A program made the position numbers and the translations under genes. A stretch of DNA of 64,000 nucleotides from Promethearchaeota archaeon. GTDB taxonomy: Archaea; Asgardarchaeota; Thorarchaeia; Thorarchaeales; Thorarchaeaceae. The stretch's first letter is position 1; every line of letters starts with the position of its first letter. The stretch lies in assembly GCA_048939765.1 (NCBI GenBank), contig JBHLPF010000018.1, positions 1 through 64,000 on the forward strand, written 5' to 3'. The notes below the pieces were generated by a model, which did not search any database, was not told where the DNA came from, and saw only the letters and a list, made by a program, of their open reading frames with translations. This document shows, piece after piece, positions 3,130 through 9,891 of the stretch.

Positions 3130-3690
3130 TCATCGCCCTGGATCAACAATAAGGCGGTAGTAATAGGAGAGTCCGGCTGTATCACTGGCACGTTGGATTC
3201 GAATCACTTGACCTGCTTTTGCACCCAGCACTTTTACAGCGGCATCATCCCGATAAATTCGAGGCAGCTGTGATTTGGTGATACCATAGTGGTCAAGGAC
3301 AAGTTGAACTTCATCCTCATTTGCGACCACATGTTTTGGCACAAGATTGTGGCCAAAGAGGTCAAACGATGAATAGCCTCCTTCCACAAGTTCTATCCGC
3401 ATTTGACGAGCGAGCTTCTTCGATGCTGGTGTGACTCTGGAGCCACCTACAAGCATACCCTCGTGTGCATGAGCCTCTTCGATATCTTTCACCAGTTCTC
3501 TAACGACAGCGACTCCCACTACCTTTGGTTCCTTGAAAATCCATACCACGGAATTAACGGTGACATCTTCAGATTCCCTTGATGGATGCATGACATACCG
3601 GTTCTCGTATTCCAACAATTCATCCACATGATATCCTCTCAGCGTAAGTAGACCTCTGGTCTTCATGACAAGCATAGGGAATTCAACCAC
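3130..3690 (-). CDS. rpo5: RNA polymerase subunit Rpo5/RPB5, eukaryote-like two-domain form, copy A
   Basis: C-terminal HNLVPKH...LPRI...GQVIRI.R.SDTAG..YYYR.I is the Rpo5/RpoH signature. The ~105-aa N-terminal extension (LRGY; KEPKVVGV; GSRVTPAS) resembles the RPB5 jaw domain. Confidence 0.88.
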   Translation of the reverse strand: MVEFPMLVMKTRGLLTLRGYHVDELLEYENRYVMHPSRESEDVTVNSVVWIFKEPKVVGVAVVRELVKDIEEAHAHEGMLVGGSRVTPASKKLARQMRIELVEGGYSSFDLFGHNLVPKHVVANEDEVQLVLDHYGITKSQLPRIYRDDAAVKVLGAKAGQVIRIQRASDTAGLSYYYRLIVDPGR

Positions 3691-3731
3691 GAGAATGCAC
3701 CCTAAATTGTGACACAGTTTTAAGCGGGAGT

Positions 3732-3741
3732 TATAAAGATT
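3732..3741 (-). promoter_or_regulatory. TATA-like promoter element for rpo5 copy A
   Basis: AATCTTTATA on the minus strand, about 42 nt upstream of the GTG start. The same 10-mer lies upstream of copy B, and an AGGTG SD-like site precedes the start. Confidence 0.55.
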
Positions 3742-3792
3742 CCCAACTAGGGATTTATGAAAAGGTTGCAGGGTTTGAAAGATGTGTTGAGT

Positions 3793-4347
3793 CTAGGATG
3801 TGACTACTAATCTGTAGTAATAGACTGCTCCAGCAGTATCACTATCTCGTTCGATTCTTACTACTTGTCCAGGTTTGGCTCCCAACACCTTCACAGCTGG
3901 GTCGCTTCTTAGAATTCGAGGAATTTGGTCCCGAGTTATGCCATAATACTCCATGACCAAAGACACTTCATCTTCCTCGGCAATACTATGCGGAGGGACG
4001 AGCTCATGTGAGAACAGATCAAAGGATGCGTAGTTTCCCAGAACAAGTTCCACCCTCATATCCATTGCATGCTTCTTTGCAGCTGGTGTGAATCTAGAAC
4101 CCCCTACCAAGATGCCTTCCTGTGCCTGAGACTCCTCCATCTTTTTAACTAAATCCTTGACAAGCGCAATTCCTACAACGCGAGGCTCTTTCAGAATCCA
4201 AACAACGGACCTGACTGTCGTATCTTCCATTTTCTTAGTCGGATGCATCTCAAATCGATTCTCATATTCGAGCAATTCCTCAACTGCATAGGCTCGAAGG
4301 TTGAGGAGGTTCCTAGTCTTTATCACATTGCTTGGGAACTCTATCAT
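3793..4347 (-). CDS. rpo5: RNA polymerase subunit Rpo5/RPB5, eukaryote-like two-domain form, copy B
   Basis: HELVPPH...IPRILRSDPAVKVLGAKPGQVVRIERDSDTAG..YYYRLVV. Aligns to copy A without gaps, about 121/184 identical by hand count. Confidence 0.9.
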   Translation of the reverse strand: MIEFPSNVIKTRNLLNLRAYAVEELLEYENRFEMHPTKKMEDTTVRSVVWILKEPRVVGIALVKDLVKKMEESQAQEGILVGGSRFTPAAKKHAMDMRVELVLGNYASFDLFSHELVPPHSIAEEDEVSLVMEYYGITRDQIPRILRSDPAVKVLGAKPGQVVRIERDSDTAGAVYYYRLVVTS

Positions 4348-4394
4348 GGAAACACACCCGAAGAAGGTCTAGCAGTCGCCGATTCAGCTTGTCA

Positions 4395-4404
4395 TATAAA
4401 GATT
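4395..4404 (-). promoter_or_regulatory. TATA-like promoter element for rpo5 copy B
   Basis: AATCTTTATA on the minus strand, about 48 nt upstream of the ATG at 4347. Confidence 0.55.
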
Positions 4405-4448
4405 ATCAAGCAGCCCTCTTCTAAATGACCGTATTGCAGGCCAGTCTT

Positions 4449-4571
4449 CTAGTCTTCTTCAAACAGCCTCATTGGTTGACCACAGCAAACGAGGGTTCCA
4501 ACACCGTATTTCACTACTCTTACTACCTGCTGACAGATGTCACATACGTACAGTTTTCCTTCTTTTCCCAT
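4449..4571 (-). CDS. Desulforedoxin-like FeS4 iron-binding small protein (40 aa; not in the ORF track)
   Basis: Manual translation: MGKEGKLYVCDICQQVVRVVKYGVGTLVCCGQPMRLFEED*. Carries the CxxC...G.G.L.CCGQPM signature. Confidence 0.88.
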   Translation of the reverse strand: MGKEGKLYVCDICQQVVRVVKYGVGTLVCCGQPMRLFEED

Positions 4572-6317: not shown

Positions 6318-6980
6318 TTATGGCGTTGGCCAAGGAATTCCGAGTCCAACAATCGTTGCATCATAGAATATGATGATACCAATGCCCAGTGCTGCGAGTC
6401 CAATCAAGACAATGACTGGAGTTGCTGCAAACACCTTCCCTATAAGTTGGATCAACTTGATCAGAAGACCGCTAAGAAGGTATACCACAGCAAAGATAAC
6501 GAAGGCTATAACTGCCATCCATTTCAAGGAGATTATCTGTGTGACATATTCGCCGATGAATGGGTCGCTCGCATGTGGCGCGAGGACTCCATACAGCGTA
6601 AATGTCCCGAACAAAGCTAAGCCTAATGACAACAGAAGGGCGATAGGGAATTTAGAGAGCATTCTCATACTCAAGGCGAAGCCGATGAGAATGAGTAGCC
6701 CAGCTACAATCACTGCGTTTGGATTCGCTGCCCAAACAACATAACCTACACACATATCCAGAATGCCTACGAAAAAGCCCAGATAGCTGCCGATAGCCAC
6801 TAGCCCATCAAATATTGTTCCGAGTAGTGGAATAGGATCTGTGATATTCTCTAGCAGCCATGCTGCAGCAAGAACACCAGAACCTATCAGCACCCAAGCG
6901 ATAACAACATCATTCTGGAAGTAGGCAACAATCTCAGCTAGGGTGAAGTCGAAAACTCCGAATTGAAGCATGGTTTGCAC
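6318..6980 (-). CDS. Polytopic membrane protein, unknown function
   Basis: About 6-7 hydrophobic helices; GAGGTG precedes the start region. Confidence 0.75.
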   Translation of the reverse strand: MQTMLQFGVFDFTLAEIVAYFQNDVVIAWVLIGSGVLAAAWLLENITDPIPLLGTIFDGLVAIGSYLGFFVGILDMCVGYVVWAANPNAVIVAGLLILIGFALSMRMLSKFPIALLLSLGLALFGTFTLYGVLAPHASDPFIGEYVTQIISLKWMAVIAFVIFAVVYLLSGLLIKLIQLIGKVFAATPVIVLIGLAALGIGIIIFYDATIVGLGIPWPTP

Positions 6981-7028: not shown

Positions 7029-8555
7029 TCACACAATTTCTATCCCCAGAATGGCAGATGAAAGCATGAAAGCTGCCCAGAAAAGAAGGCCGCAAACCGC
7101 GCCCATTAGAATCGGACGCCTACCTCCAACCATGCTTGTGTTCTGATAGCCCGTGGATACAGTCGTGATAAGCAAGGTGACAAATAGAGGCAATATGCTC
7201 AGTAAGGACAAATCGGCAGCGCTCCAAGTTGGTCCCTCAGTCAGCAAAGAACCGATGTATAGGAATGGAGAGAGCGCGGATAGCAGACCCAGGACAAGTG
7301 AGCTGGTGATACTCAGTAGATAGACCTTGAGACGCTGAGCCGCGATAATTGACTCACGTTCCTTTGCAACGGCTGACCGCTTCACTAGACGAGCAGCAAT
7401 CCTTGAGAGTCGGTCTCCTGCATCAGTGGCGGAGGCCTCACACATCAGTGTTATCATCTTGATCATATTTGCCACCCGCTGACCCAACGCCATCGTAGCT
7501 GCTTCAGCCATAGCTTCCTCAATACTTCTCCCTCCCCATGTAATGGCTTTAATGACAGGATCAATAAGCTTCTGAATCTCCAGTGCCACGTCGTCGCGGA
7601 CAGCTTGGATAGCGACCTCCAGAGTGTCGCCGGACCTCAGACGTTCTGATAACAGCATGAGGAAGTTCAGGAATTCATCATATTCTGCGACAATATGGCT
7701 TTGATGAAGGAACAACGCATTCTCGCGATTGGGCCTATCAAAATACGCAGAGAACTGACTCGAGAATCTTGTCTTCAAGAGCGAGTTGAGTCCTATGAGG
7801 ATCGGTGCCAACAGAAGAACAATGAGATTGGTAGCATGTCCCGCGAGTGAAACTGCCAGAGTGAGCATTATTGGTATGTAGGTGGCAAGTGCTGCTACAA
7901 CCAAAAGACGGCTCTCAAGCTCCAGATTCTTCTGGCGCAATGTCATGTCGGCTTCAAAGGACTCTCCTGAAAGGAGGCCAAGGAGTTCAGTCTTCTTCTC
8001 AAGTGCTGAGAGGATGCCCATTATGTATCTCCTTAAATCATCAGAGGGCTGATTCTTGGCAAATTCCATCAGGCAAGTTTCAGGAGGCGTGCCATCTTGA
8101 ATCTGCACCATAATGTTTTGGAAGACCTTTGACAAGAAGGGGTGTTCGGATAGAGCTACCATCTCAATTGCATCAAAGATTGTGCCTCCCGTTTGAAAGA
8201 CAAGGATGAATTGCTCGAAGACGAGGTCCGCTTCTTCGGATAAGCTGAGCTTATAGCTGTTCATGGTTGATACAGGATACGACACGATGGCGTAGTATGT
8301 TATCGCAGATGCGATGGCGGATATTGGCAGAGCTATCAGTATGCTTGCGCCAAGAATAATGAAGACTACGAGCGAAATGGCCAATACCGAAGTTGAAGTG
8401 AAATATGACGCCGCATAGACACCCTGTGTACTAACTTGCATCCTTGTTTCAAGGAATTTGACTGCTTTTGCAAGGTCTCGATCTTCTCTCCGGGCGCCCA
8501 GCGAGGAAAACGGGGGAATTCGAGCACACAGATTGCATAGCCGCTCGTATATCAC
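7029..8555 (-). CDS. Type II secretion/type IV pilus platform (T2SSF; TadB/TadC/ArlJ-like) membrane protein
   Basis: Two T2SSF-like cytoplasmic repeats (TGGTIFDAIEMVA...L.K.F; LRSGDTLEVAI) alternating with TM blocks. Confidence 0.7.
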   Translation of the reverse strand: MIYERLCNLCARIPPFSSLGARREDRDLAKAVKFLETRMQVSTQGVYAASYFTSTSVLAISLVVFIILGASILIALPISAIASAITYYAIVSYPVSTMNSYKLSLSEEADLVFEQFILVFQTGGTIFDAIEMVALSEHPFLSKVFQNIMVQIQDGTPPETCLMEFAKNQPSDDLRRYIMGILSALEKKTELLGLLSGESFEADMTLRQKNLELESRLLVVAALATYIPIMLTLAVSLAGHATNLIVLLLAPILIGLNSLLKTRFSSQFSAYFDRPNRENALFLHQSHIVAEYDEFLNFLMLLSERLRSGDTLEVAIQAVRDDVALEIQKLIDPVIKAITWGGRSIEEAMAEAATMALGQRVANMIKMITLMCEASATDAGDRLSRIAARLVKRSAVAKERESIIAAQRLKVYLLSITSSLVLGLLSALSPFLYIGSLLTEGPTWSAADLSLLSILPLFVTLLITTVSTGYQNTSMVGGRRPILMGAVCGLLFWAAFMLSSAILGIEIV

Positions 8556-8616: not shown

Positions 8617-9891
8617 TCATTCAATGAAGTCTGTGACCAACGTTTGAGTTGTGAACTCCCTATAGAGCTTACTCACCTTGAGCCATCTCTCAATTGGATT
8701 CCTCAAATGTTTGCCAATCTCACCTATTGCTTCATGGAGAGAGGAGAACTTCTTGGCTTGGGATTGGAGAGCTCTTCTTGCGATTTCCCTGAAACGCCAG
8801 ACTCCTAGTGGGACCCATAACTGTGGGTCAATCTCCATAAAGACTATCACGCCTGCCTGTCTGCGAATCTTTCTGAGATGCTGAAGAGCAGGTAGTCGTG
8901 TTGCATAATACGCCCCAACCACTGAGCTGGCATAGTCCTTTCTTCCTCGAAACCATTCATTATCAGTGATGATTGGAGGGTTCAGGCCGCCAAGCCACGA
9001 CTCCATTGCCTCGAATTGCCACCCACTTGGCAGAAAGAGGAGCGCAACAGTGTTTCCAAGAGCATGATCGACAAAGACTAGATAGTCATTGATCCATGGC
9101 AGGCGAAGGACTTGCTTGTGGAGCGCTTTGCCAACGATATCATCAACGGCAGTAATACTCCATTTTGTGGGTACCAACCGACGATTTCTCTGTTCACCCA
9201 AGAGACCAACAGATAAGAGGCGAGTCATCTGTTGCTGGTGAACACCATCTTCAAACATCTCCATTACTCCGCCCACAGCCTTCAGGTCTGTGTCTGAGGT
9301 CACCTTGTCCACGGCTTTGGGTACCTTGGGATTGTCCTCAAGTACGAATAGCTGAAGCGGAGCAGATGGCCCAGTTGGGAGTGTTCGGTCTGAGAAAACA
9401 CTGGTAAAGCTAGGTCGTTTCAGAAGCGTGGCTTCTGAAGATGTGGGAGTTTCAGAAAGCGCAAGTGTTTGGGTCTCTGAGAGAATTCTTGGCGGATCAG
9501 CTGCCGCATTCACCTGAATTAGTTTCTTCGTTCTCACAAGATTGAAACGGAGAGAGAGAATCTCGTCAATAGTCTTGTCTAGCCACAAATCAGGACGCTC
9601 CATGATGGCTGCATCCGGCCCTGTAATTGGAGGGATGAGAGGGCCAGCTAGGACTTTCGGGTATCCCTGCTCGCCTACAAAAACGGATGGAGGCGATGAC
9701 CCGGCTAGATCCAAGCCAGTAACAGCACTCTCGATGCTACTCAAAGCCTTGGCGCGCATTAGAAGCGGGCATGGATTGATACCGCAAAGATGCCTGTGAC
9801 CCATACACCTGGAACAGACTCGCTCATCATATGACATCTGCTTGGCTCCACTAGGAACCTTTTCGAGACGCGTCTGCGCCAGCATCTTCAC
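8617..9891 (-). CDS. nreA: Nre family DNA repair protein with C-terminal PIP box
   Basis: CSRCMG..LCG..PCP, GSSPPSVFVGE.GYPKV..GP, RRLVPTKWSITAVDD, GAYYA.RL, PLGVW..RE and terminal QTLVTDF. True start may be 9837. Confidence 0.92.
   Translation of the reverse strand: MKMLAQTRLEKVPSGAKQMSYDERVCSRCMGHRHLCGINPCPLLMRAKALSSIESAVTGLDLAGSSPPSVFVGEQGYPKVLAGPLIPPITGPDAAIMERPDLWLDKTIDEILSLRFNLVRTKKLIQVNAAADPPRILSETQTLALSETPTSSEATLLKRPSFTSVFSDRTLPTGPSAPLQLFVLEDNPKVPKAVDKVTSDTDLKAVGGVMEMFEDGVHQQQMTRLLSVGLLGEQRNRRLVPTKWSITAVDDIVGKALHKQVLRLPWINDYLVFVDHALGNTVALLFLPSGWQFEAMESWLGGLNPPIITDNEWFRGRKDYASSVVGAYYATRLPALQHLRKIRRQAGVIVFMEIDPQLWVPLGVWRFREIARRALQSQAKKFSSLHEAIGEIGKHLRNPIERWLKVSKLYREFTTQTLVTDFIE

What the first reader, a model, noticed from the sequence alone, without database searches (positions are those of the whole stretch)
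3130..4347. Tandem pair of eukaryote-type, two-domain RPB5 genes with separate promoters: possible alternative RNA polymerase subunits in an archaeon
Seen: two adjacent ORFs (186 and 184 aa) align without gaps at about 66% identity (hand count). Each has a complete Rpo5 assembly domain plus about 105 extra N-terminal residues, and each is preceded by the same AATCTTTATA element (3732-3741 and 4395-4404). Established: typical archaeal Rpo5/RpoH is about 75-85 aa, lacks the jaw domain and leads the rpoH-B-A operon. Eukaryotic RPB5 has the N-terminal jaw that contacts downstream DNA, and RPB5 paralogs mark specialised polymerases (plant Pol V NRPE5, trypanosome RPB5z). The N-termini here (LRGY.V; KEP.VVG; G.R.TP.A/SK) match the pattern I recall for the jaw (RGY; EPKVG; GMTPSAK). 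Copy A has lost the conserved 'DP' (DAA) and has KAG in place of KPG. Neither copy is next to rpoB/A. Inference: two diverged, retained, independently transcribed subunits could build distinct RNAP isoforms, a prokaryotic precursor of polymerase specialisation.
Basis: partly seen in the sequence, partly recalled or inferred. Interest (0 to 1): 0.82.

Follow-up and report, generated by a model that had tools for sequence, protein, structure and literature searches.

The report
Paired jaw-bearing Rpo5 genes, Thorarchaeota
This Asgard (Thorarchaeota) archaeon has two old, intact, separately promoted copies of the small RNA polymerase subunit Rpo5, and both carry the extra N-terminal "jaw" domain (a dead nuclease fold) that the papers I could read describe only in eukaryotic RPB5; nothing yet shows that the two copies do different jobs.

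Summary
Window 3130-3690(-) (copy A, 186 aa) and 3793-4347(-) (copy B, 184 aa) are 66% identical without gaps. Both pass the Rpb5_C and RpoH models, and they are the only Rpo5 genes in this 88.5%-complete Thorarchaeota MAG. The rpoB-A'-A'' operon has no rpoH.

The N-terminal 105 residues are a nuclease-dead Mrr-type PD-(D/E)XK domain homologous to the eukaryotic Rpb5 jaw:
- An N-domain-only profile hits only RPB5 jaws in the PDB (E 3e-7).
- The full model superposes on human RPB5 over both domains (Z 18.2, 177 of 184 residues).

The domain fails Pfam Rpb5_N, lacks a ~20-residue eukaryotic insertion, and taken alone is geometrically as close to archaeal nucleases as to the jaw.

The duplication is old. 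A and B each form a 100%-supported clade across the genus, dN/dS is 0.06-0.08, and synonymous sites are saturated. Each copy has a conserved AATCTTTATA promoter-like element and a GGGTG ribosome-binding motif.

Functional specialisation is not shown:
- Only six conservative residues differ consistently between A and B.
- All Rpb1-contact residues are kept in both.
- There is only one Rpo1, one Rpo2 and one Rpo6.

This scan has already reported the same pair and the jaw-bearing form on other Thorarchaeota and Asgard genomes.

The parts
3793..4347 (-). Copy B (upstream paralogue), long-form Rpo5/RpoH, 184 aa, ATG start, tail ...VVTS
   Evidence: ORF. Rpb5_C 88.9 bits and RpoH NF007129 92.8 bits. 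AF2 model pLDDT 87.2. Superposes on full RPB5 with Z 18.2. Member of the genus-wide 'UP' clade, support 100/99.
3130..3690 (-). Copy A (downstream paralogue), long-form Rpo5/RpoH, 186 aa, GTG start, tail ...DPGR
   Evidence: ORF. Rpb5_C 88.1 bits and RpoH 91.5 bits. A GTG/TTG start at the same aligned codon in all 11 genus members. Member of the 'DOWN' clade, support 100/99.
4033..4347 (-). Copy B N-terminal domain (residues 1-105): nuclease-dead Mrr-type PD-(D/E)XK domain homologous to the Rpb5 jaw
   Evidence: Pfam NA-iREase1 27.6 bits and Mrr_cat 23.4 bits. N-only profile hits RPB5 jaws at 3e-7. N-only model pLDDT 93.6. Catalytic DGGxD and QCK columns lost.
3376..3690 (-). Copy A N-terminal domain (residues 1-105), same kind
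   Evidence: Pfam Mrr_cat 25.5 bits. 63% identical to the copy B N-domain. Has LRGY and TPAS motifs.
3793..4032 (-). Copy B C-terminal Rpo5 assembly domain (residues 106-184) plus stop
   Evidence: PF01191 over residues 110-181. H114, P118, D149, R167 and R179 correspond to yeast H147, P151, D182, R200 and R212.
3130..3375 (-). Copy A C-terminal Rpo5 assembly domain (residues 106-186) plus stop
   Evidence: PF01191 over residues 110-181. The same five Rpb1-contact residues are present; P150 is replaced by A in this subclade only.
4395..4404 (-). Promoter-like BRE/TATA element of copy B (AATCTTTATA; 47 nt between the TTTATA and the ATG)
   Evidence: Exact 10-mer. Conserved at a fixed distance in 8 of 10 genus members, with AATG in place of AATC in the other 2. 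A similar element is present in single-copy genera.
3732..3741 (-). Promoter-like BRE/TATA element of copy A (AATCTTTATA; 41 nt between the TTTATA and the GTG)
   Evidence: Exact 10-mer. TTGGGAATCTTTATA is conserved in all 11 genus members while the flanking intergenic sequence varies.
4355..4359 (-). Shine-Dalgarno-like GGGTG, 7 nt before the copy B ATG
3698..3702 (-). Shine-Dalgarno-like GGGTG, 7 nt before the copy A GTG
   Evidence: Conserved in all A copies of the genus.

Best explanation
The two genes are old tandem paralogues of the long, jaw-bearing form of RNA polymerase subunit Rpo5 (RpoH), and they are this archaeon's only Rpo5 genes.

Domain roles. In each protein the C-terminal 80 residues are the universal Rpo5 assembly domain. 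It docks on the single Rpo1 (A'/A'') through the same five contact residues as yeast Rpb5. The N-terminal 105 residues are a catalytically dead Mrr-type PD-(D/E)XK domain. [quoted passage not shown]

Origin and expression. The duplicated unit included the promoter, so each copy has its own BRE/TATA element and ribosome-binding site. Both proteins are therefore made and compete for one site per polymerase. This gives two polymerase populations that differ only in the lower jaw.

Most likely meaning. The pair is sub-functionalised mainly through expression: different BRE context in a genome with six TFB paralogues, plus modest surface differences. It is not a pair of re-engineered subunits with different chemistry.

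What is shown: gene structure, homology, the age of the duplication, purifying selection, and conserved promoter-like elements.
What is inferred: incorporation of both proteins into RNAP, independent transcription, the position of the jaw, and any functional difference.
For: Identity and uniqueness:
- Rpb5_C and RpoH models are passed by both copies.
- These are the only two Rpb5_C matches in the genome.
- rpoB-A'-A'' on contig C12 has no rpoH.

Jaw homology:
- phmmer alignment to human RPB5 is collinear, query 41-181 against chain 66-209.
- The N-domain-only profile's top 11 PDB hits are all RPB5 jaws (best 3.3e-7), with no nuclease at E<=10.
- Foldseek gives TMq 0.80 and rmsd 2.5 A to 8uhd_E.
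- VIA-align gives Z 18.2 with 177 residues aligned, model 1-182 on chain 4-210.
- The same profile retrieves proteins that pass PF03871 (P0175, P0260, P0164) as well as Mrr_cat nucleases.
- The invariant R18 aligns with the R of the DRGY motif, where R26E is lethal in yeast (PMC1802627).

Docking residues: H114, P118, D149, R167 and R179 are kept in A and B.

Dead nuclease: the DGGxD and QCK columns are lost and variable.

Age and selection:
- The A and B clades each have 100/99 support with congruent inner topology.
- dN/dS is 0.074 for B and 0.056 for A, and is similar in both domains.
- A-versus-B dS is saturated and dN is about 0.27.
- The stem branches are similar, 0.22 and 0.20.

Expression signals:
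- AATCTTTATA is conserved 41-48 nt upstream of both starts across the genus, with GGGTG 7 nt before each start.
- The BRE context differs systematically: GATAATC for B and GGGAATC for A.
- The genome has six TFB genes and one TBP.
Against: - No transcript or protein data exist, so promoter use and incorporation of both proteins into RNAP are inferred.
- Only one TTTT run lies between the B stop and the A promoter, so read-through co-transcription is not excluded.
- The window proteins do not reach Pfam Rpb5_N at all.
- Taken alone, the N-domain is structurally nearer to AF1548 (Z 11.0) and NucS (Z 10.1) than to Rpb5 jaws (Z 8.8 and 8.0).
- The RG(Y/F) and FT..A motifs are shared with Mrr_cat. 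An independent fusion of an Mrr domain to Rpo5 in archaea is therefore not strictly excluded.
- The linker (residues 101-120) has pLDDT 65-67. The predicted inter-domain orientation may also reflect AlphaFold's training on Rpb5 structures.
- Only six conservative substitutions are fixed between A and B, which gives no positive sign of different function.
Confidence: 0.62

Rival explanations
1. Functionally specialised isoforms. A-type and B-type polymerases have different promoter, template or factor preferences because their jaws differ. This would be a prokaryotic precursor of the division of labour seen with plant NRPE5 or trypanosome RPB5z.
For: - Both copies are retained in every genus member with data, and similar pairs occur in four other genera of the family.
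- Both are under strong purifying selection.
- They show 34% protein divergence and separate conserved promoters.
- Clade-specific conservation patterns exist: 5 sites are invariant only in B and 6 only in A.
Against: - There is a single Rpo1, Rpo2 and Rpo6, so no dedicated catalytic core exists.
- The six fixed A/B differences are all conservative: R/K, K/R, D/E, F/V, S/G and I/L.
- Docking residues and jaw motifs are identical in kind.
- Five or more genera of the same family manage with one copy.
Confidence: 0.25
2. Plain redundancy or dosage. The two copies are interchangeable and are kept only to raise or buffer the Rpo5 supply.
For: - Divergence is symmetrical and the fixed differences are conservative.
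- All functional landmarks are the same.
- The copies lie in tandem with a duplicated promoter.
Against: - Redundant copies rarely persist until synonymous sites are saturated with dN/dS of 0.06-0.08 in both.
- There is no sign of gene conversion, which usually homogenises dosage duplicates; nucleotide identity is only 63%.
- Rpo5 is needed at one copy per polymerase, and the other subunits are single-copy.
Confidence: 0.1
3. The archaeal N-domain is not the ancestor of, or an orthologue of, the eukaryotic jaw. It would be an independent fusion of an Mrr-like domain to Rpo5, and the resemblance to Rpb5_N would come from shared descent from Mrr nucleases plus convergence.
For: - PF03871 is not reached, whereas Mrr_cat and NA-iREase1 are.
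- The N-domain alone is closer in geometry to AF1548 and NucS than to jaws.
- The shared motifs also occur in Mrr_cat.
- The form is patchy within Asgard: the largest family sampled and several others have the short form.
Against: - Among PDB sequences the N-only profile finds only RPB5 jaws.
- Domain order, linker position and predicted inter-domain packing match Rpb5.
- Metagenomic relatives grade into proteins that pass PF03871.
- One fusion in the Asgard-eukaryote lineage is more parsimonious than two identical ones.
Confidence: 0.12
4. One copy has left the polymerase and acts elsewhere, for example as an assembly factor, a decoy or a regulator that uses the jaw as a protein- or DNA-binding module.
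For: In eukaryotes Rpb5 also binds non-polymerase partners such as Bud27/URI (title and abstract of PMC6690254, listed). The N-domain fold is a versatile binding module.
Against: Both copies keep every Rpb1-contact residue, and C-domain dN/dS is equally low at 0.06-0.08. No extra domains or tails are present.
Confidence: 0.05

Closest known systems
Eukaryotic Rpb5 / RPABC1 / POLR2E (Pfam PF03871 + PF01191; e.g. PDB 7vba_E, 8uhd_E, 1dzf), shared subunit of Pol I, II and III
   Same: - Two-domain order: jaw, then assembly domain.
- Collinear sequence alignment, about 30% identity.
- Full-length fold match at Z 16-18.
- The R of DRGY, the T-P-x-A motif and all five Rpb1-contact residues are present.
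- The jaw is a nuclease-dead PD-(D/E)XK fold (PMC3424549).
   Different: - About 25 residues shorter, and lacks the ~20-residue helical insertion after helix 1.
- Does not reach the Pfam Rpb5_N model.
- Still scores as Mrr_cat.
- Serves a single archaeal polymerase.
- Present here as two tandem paralogues.
Canonical archaeal Rpo5 / RpoH (77-84 aa; e.g. PDB 8cro_H, 4qiw_H, 7ok0_H), first gene of the rpoH-rpoB-rpoA cluster
   Same: The C-domain is 38-55% identical and superposes at rmsd 1.3-1.8 A (Z 12-14). It meets the NCBIfam RpoH equivalog cut-off.
   Different: - Has an extra 105-residue N-domain, whereas the papers read state that archaeal RpoH has no N-terminal extension (PMC3906176) and call this module eukaryotic (PMC1802627).
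- Is detached from the rpo operon.
- Is duplicated.
Mrr_cat / NA-iREase1 PD-(D/E)XK domains (Pfam PF04471, PF22722; structures AF1548 1y88, NucS/EndoMS 2vld)
   Same: - Same compact fold: Z 10-11 with 93-95 residues aligned.
- Shared scaffold motifs RG(F/Y), VG..VR(E/D)L, GIL and FT..A.
- Marginal Pfam hits of 23-28 bits.
   Different: - The catalytic DGGxD and (Q/E)xK residues are lost.
- The domain is fused to an RNAP assembly domain.
- Its sequence profile prefers RPB5 jaws over any solved nuclease.
Specialised eukaryotic RPB5 paralogues: plant NRPE5 (Pol V; PDB 8hyj_E, 8hil_E) and trypanosome RPB5z
   Same: A second, diverged, retained Rpb5-type subunit gene in one genome.
   Different: - NRPE5 is solved as a subunit of Pol V (8hyj_E, 8hil_E), a polymerase separate from Pol II; that such paralogues pair with their own largest subunits is background knowledge.
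- Here there is one Rpo1, one Rpo2 and one Rpo6.
- The A/B differences are mild.

Membership tests
Rpo5/RpoH/Rpb5 assembly domain (PF01191; NCBIfam NF007129) | Profile score above the curated cut-off | tested here: met
   PF01191 scores 88.1 and 88.9 bits against 23.5. NF007129 scores 91.5 and 92.8 against 83.
Rpo5/RpoH/Rpb5 assembly domain (PF01191; NCBIfam NF007129) | Quasi-invariant Rpb1-contact residues (yeast H147, P151, D182, R200, R212; PMC1802627) | tested here: met
   H114, P118, D149, R167 and R179 are present in both copies. The offset of 33 comes from the alignments. All but P118 are invariant in the 25-sequence Asgard alignment, and P118 is nearly invariant.
Rpo5/RpoH/Rpb5 assembly domain (PF01191; NCBIfam NF007129) | Physical incorporation into RNA polymerase | not testable with these tools
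   Needs purification, reconstitution or multimer modelling.
Eukaryotic Rpb5 N-terminal jaw (Pfam PF03871) | Pfam profile above the gathering score (27 bits) | tested here: not met
   No PF03871 hit at E<=1 for either protein. The genome-wide search found no match at this locus and none above cut-off anywhere; its one hit, on another contig, had E 0.93 and 11.9 bits. Some metagenomic relatives do pass: P0260 at 82 bits and P0164 at 166 bits.
Eukaryotic Rpb5 N-terminal jaw (Pfam PF03871) | Detectable sequence homology of the N-domain alone to solved Rpb5 jaws | tested here: met
   The A1 profile's top 11 PDB hits are all RPB5 jaws, with E from 3.3e-7 to 3e-3. The Arabidopsis NRPB5A match covers query 12-92.
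Eukaryotic Rpb5 N-terminal jaw (Pfam PF03871) | Fold and packing against the C-domain as in Rpb5 | tested here: met
   Z 18.2, rmsd 2.8 A, 177 residues aligned, model 1-182 on chain 4-210. TMq 0.80. Caveats: it is a predicted model, and the linker has pLDDT 65-67.
Eukaryotic Rpb5 N-terminal jaw (Pfam PF03871) | Helical insertion after helix alpha1 (about 20 residues) typical of eukaryotic jaws | tested here: not met
   Absent from all Asgard sequences aligned. Present in the PF03871-positive P0260 and P0175.
Eukaryotic Rpb5 N-terminal jaw (Pfam PF03871) | Invariant Arg of the DRGY motif in helix alpha1 (R26E lethal in yeast) | tested here: met
   R18 is invariant in the 25 Asgard N-domains and aligns with the R of DRGY. 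The RG(F/Y) motif also occurs in Mrr_cat proteins, so it is not jaw-specific.
Eukaryotic Rpb5 N-terminal jaw (Pfam PF03871) | Position beside downstream DNA in the polymerase | not testable with these tools
   Needs a complex structure or crosslinking.
Mrr_cat restriction-endonuclease domain (PF04471) | Pfam profile above the gathering score (21 bits) | tested here: met
   25.5 and 23.4 bits, but covering only profile positions about 58-108 of 115.
Mrr_cat restriction-endonuclease domain (PF04471) | Catalytic D ... (E/Q)xK residues | tested here: not met
   The DGGxD and QCK columns of six Mrr_cat proteins align with N-RFE / N-RYV and WIL / WIF in copies B and A, and these columns vary across Asgard.
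Specialised-polymerase RPB5 paralogues (NRPE5 / RPB5z type) | A second largest-subunit set for the paralogue to pair with | tested here: not met
   One Rpb2 match, one A'/A'' pair and one Rpo6, in an 88.5%-complete assembly.

The most novel reading that the evidence does not exclude
Thorarchaeota of this genus build two versions of their single RNA polymerase that differ only in a jaw-bearing Rpo5, and they use them for different promoters, templates or conditions. That would be the first case of subunit-isoform specialisation of a prokaryotic RNA polymerase. Together with the archaeal origin of the Rpb5 jaw from a dead Mrr nuclease, it would be a living model of the first step towards multiple eukaryotic polymerases.
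Probability: 0.25. Interest if true: 0.8.

Novelty: new variant of a known kind. Interest (0 to 1): 0.6.

Why it matters
The Rpb5 jaw is described as a eukaryotic module in the papers I could read: PMC1802627; PMC3906176, which says archaeal RpoH has no N-terminal extension; and PMC3424549, which lists the distribution of PF03871 as Eukaryota. Finding the same two-domain subunit across many Asgard families moves the origin of this part of Pol I/II/III into archaea. The Asgard sequences still score as Mrr nucleases, so they also point to the jaw's likely source, a disabled Mrr-type restriction nuclease.

The tandem pair adds a testable question: can one archaeal polymerase core be diversified by swapping a peripheral subunit? 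Both proteins are small and could be tested in existing systems. These are reconstitution of RNAP lacking subunit H (PMC2847245) and yeast rpb5 deletion complementation (PMC3906176).

If the two copies turn out to be interchangeable, the pair is an ordinary old duplication, and only the archaeal jaw remains of interest.

Tried and rejected
- Pfam Rpb5_N (PF03871) on the two proteins and on the whole genome gave no usable hit.
- An active nuclease is rejected because the catalytic motifs are lost.
- A strain-specific duplication is rejected.
- Relaxed selection on one copy is rejected.
- A further short rpoH in the rpo operon was not found. The assembly is 88.5% complete, so a missed copy cannot be ruled out absolutely.
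- DP->DA and KPG->KAG as paralogue-defining changes are rejected.
- Dating the duplication within the family was inconclusive. The backbone is unresolved, and the AU test does not reject a single clade of all upstream copies (p 0.43). One ancient duplication with losses and several independent duplications both remain open.
- Literature searches (Asgard with Rpb5, Rpo5 or RpoH; Lokiarchaeota with Rpb5; Rpb5_N; TPSA motif) found no description of a long archaeal Rpo5. The library lacks most subscription journals and supplements, so this is not proof of absence.
A genome-contig scan with the triple-jaw protein P0164 found nothing. Alignment A1 was too diverse for a pattern scan. The listing of cluster members gave no organism names. 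I therefore could not name the lineages of the eukaryote-like and multi-jaw relatives.
- Earlier scan notes say the long form also occurs in Bathyarchaeia. I could not test that here.
Full report
OBSERVATION

Copy A is 3130-3690 (GTG start, 186 aa). Copy B is 3793-4347 (ATG start, 184 aa). They align at 121/182 identities (66%) with no gaps.

Both pass Pfam RNA_pol_Rpb5_C (88-89 bits, residues 110-181) and the NCBIfam RpoH equivalog. Each therefore carries about 105 extra N-terminal residues.

The 10-mer AATCTTTATA occurs only twice in the 64 kb window, upstream of each gene (0.13 expected).

ORGANISM AND GENOME CONTEXT

Close homologues are annotated as Candidatus Thorarchaeota RpoH. The assembly is a 3.37 Mb MAG that is 88.5% complete.

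These are the only two Rpb5_C matches in the assembly. The rpoB-rpoA'-rpoA'' operon on contig C12 is preceded by a divergent thioesterase gene, not by rpoH. This agrees with a published note that in Asgard genomes the conserved core of this cluster starts at rpoA1 (PMC10833476).

The assembly has a single Rpo2, a single A'/A'' pair and a single Rpo6. It has six TFB genes and one TBP.

WHAT THE N-DOMAIN IS

Pfam gives only marginal Mrr_cat and NA-iREase1 hits and no Rpb5_N hit. Even so, several results tie the domain to the Rpb5 jaw:
- phmmer against PDB sequences aligns copy B collinearly with human RPB5, query 41-181 against chain 66-209, which runs well into the jaw.
- A profile built only from N-domains of 25 Asgard proteins (alignment A1) has RPB5 jaws as its top 11 PDB hits (3.3e-7 to 3e-3). 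No nuclease appears even at E<=10.
- The AlphaFold model of copy B (pLDDT 87.2) superposes on complete eukaryotic Rpb5 chains over both domains. Foldseek gives E 2e-15 and TMq 0.80. VIA-align gives Z 18.2, rmsd 2.8 A and 177 of 184 residues aligned.
- Short archaeal Rpo5 chains match only residues about 106-184.

The picture is not one-sided:
- The N-domain modelled alone (pLDDT 93.6) is geometrically closest to compact archaeal PD-(D/E)XK proteins: AF1548 at Z 11.0 and NucS at Z 10.1. Rpb5 jaws follow at Z 8.8 (Arabidopsis) and 8.0 (ASFV).
- Searched against 1.8 billion representative proteins, the N-profile first finds two-domain Rpo5 proteins. It then finds bona fide Mrr_cat nucleases, and among the hits are proteins that pass Pfam Rpb5_N.
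- An alignment with Mrr_cat proteins shows a shared scaffold: RG(F/Y), VG..VR(E/D)L, GIL and FT..A. The catalytic DGGxD and QCK motifs are lost in the Asgard N-domains.
- A bridge alignment shows that eukaryote-type jaws have a ~20-residue insertion after helix 1 that Asgard forms lack. This explains why the Pfam model misses them.

The domain is therefore a nuclease-dead Mrr-type domain that lies between Mrr_cat and Rpb5_N in sequence space. The PD-(D/E)XK nature of the eukaryotic jaw is already established (PMC3424549).

FUNCTIONAL LANDMARKS

Zaros et al. (PMC1802627) identified three sets of landmarks in yeast Rpb5: the invariant DRGY motif (R26E is lethal), P118 facing the DNA cleft, and H147, P151, D182, R200 and R212 contacting Rpb1.
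- In the Asgard alignment only R18 and T87 are invariant in the N-domain.
- R18 aligns with the R of DRGY. T87-P88 aligns with the T-P of TPSA, which corresponds to yeast P118.
- H114, P118, D149, R167 and R179 are present in both A and B.

Both copies therefore look competent to dock on Rpo1. This is an inference.

AGE, SELECTION AND SPREAD OF THE DUPLICATION

Spread:
- In 40 relatives, ten of the 16 other genomes of the window's genus have a match. Nine of those ten have the tandem pair, and the tenth has one copy about 65 bp from a contig end.
- Three other genera of the family have a pair, and five genera have one copy.
- In a 301-genome Asgard sample, 293 have Rpb5_C. Two or more copies occur almost only in this family (genera g1, g3, g5, g9, g29), with two isolated cases elsewhere.

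Age:
- In the tree, the upstream (B) and downstream (A) copies of the genus each form a clade with 100/99 support. Their inner topologies are congruent and their stem lengths similar, 0.22 and 0.20. The duplication therefore predates the genus radiation.
- The family backbone is unresolved. An AU test does not reject one clade of all upstream copies (p 0.43), so a single older duplication with later losses remains possible.

Selection:
- NG86 dN/dS within clades is 0.074 for B and 0.056 for A, and is similar in the N- and C-domains.
- Between A and B, dS is saturated and nucleotide identity is 62-65%, which argues against recent gene conversion.

EXPRESSION SIGNALS

Across the genus both copies keep a TATA-like TTTATA 41-48 nt upstream of the start, while the flanking intergenic sequence varies. 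The full AATCTTTATA is present upstream of all 11 A copies and 8 of 10 B copies; the other two B copies read AATGTTTATA. Each copy also has a GGGTG motif 7 nt before the start.

The context differs consistently between the copies: TTGATAATC before B and TTGGGAATC before A. Single-copy genera have a B-like element in the same place.

Copy B lies directly downstream of a desulforedoxin gene (4449-4571). The same gene end is visible upstream in other genera. The shared promoter core suggests that the duplicated unit was promoter plus gene.

Only one TTTT run separates the B stop from the A promoter. Read-through is therefore not excluded.

DO A AND B DIFFER IN A MEANINGFUL WAY?

Of 182 aligned positions, 78 are invariant and identical in both clades. 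Only six are fixed differently, and all six changes are conservative: R56K, K64R, D65E, F86V, S113G and I142L. A few sites are constrained in one clade only.

DP->DA is confined to one subclade of A, and the P of KPG varies in both clades and in single-copy genera.

With one catalytic core, any isoforms would differ only in Rpo5. That is unlike plant Pol V (NRPE5; PDB 8hyj_E, 8hil_E), which is a separate polymerase.

VERDICT

The observation and the architectural reading are correct. The pair is ancient, maintained and probably independently transcribed, so two polymerase populations are a fair inference. Functional specialisation is neither shown nor suggested by the residue pattern.

In the papers I could search, the jaw is treated as eukaryotic or as absent from archaea (PMC1802627, PMC3906176, PMC3424549), and I found no description of a long archaeal Rpo5. 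That library is incomplete.

This scan has already reported the same tandem pair on other Thorarchaeota genomes and the jaw-bearing form in other Asgard lineages. My tests agree with those notes. New here:
- the N-domain-alone fold ranking;
- the Mrr motif inheritance;
- the AU test;
- the single-core and six-TFB context.

Noticed in passing
L039:1957-3351 (-) (genome G039, family f14); also proteins P0129, P0146, P0152, P0164: Some Asgard and metagenomic Rpo5 proteins carry two or three tandem copies of the jaw-type N-domain before a single Rpb5_C domain. The G039 frame is 465 aa with N-domains at 58-113 (weak), 150-249 and 266-376, and the C-domain at 378-451. P0164 has three PF03871 stretches totalling 166 bits. 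I did not find 'multi-jaw' Rpo5 described in the papers searched.
   Followed up: partly
L004:1195-1848 (+) and L005:1399-2025 (-) (genomes G030, G040, family f7): Long-form Rpo5 with an additional strongly acidic (Glu-rich) C-terminal tail of about 25-35 residues after the assembly domain.
   Followed up: no
window 4449-4571 (-): A 40-aa desulforedoxin-type gene (Pfam Desulfoferrod_N, 1e-12) lies immediately upstream of copy B. Its 3' end (..CGQPMRL(F/Y)E..) is visible upstream of Rpo5 in G004, G006, G012, G020 and the single-copy G023, so the synteny is conserved.
   Followed up: partly
G000 contigs C71, C60, C34, C50 (two adjacent genes at C50:88549-90140): Six TFB (TFIIB-type) genes but only one TBP in this genome. 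Two of the TFB genes lie in tandem.
   Followed up: no
G302:C1:150104-150322 and G302:C1:254160-254378 (family f30): An independent case of two long-form Rpo5 genes outside the Thorarchaeota family. The copies are unlinked, about 104 kb apart on one contig. G277 (family f9) also has two matches, and G185 and G227 (genus g5) have three.
   Followed up: no
window 7029-8555 (-) and 6318-6980 (-): A 508-aa and a 220-aa predicted multi-pass membrane protein, neither with any Pfam match. A two-domain Nre gene (Nre_N + Nre_C) follows at 8617-9891 (-).
   Followed up: no
window 3691-3745 and 4348-4410 (-), and the same regions in the L017-L030 relatives: The sequence between the TATA element and the start codon is strongly conserved within each paralogue class: ..CG(G/C)CGAC..TAGA(C/G)CTTCT.. 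before B and ..ATTGC(G/A)..TTTAGGGTG.. before A. This is more than a bare promoter and ribosome-binding site would need, and it may hold a regulatory site.
   Followed up: no
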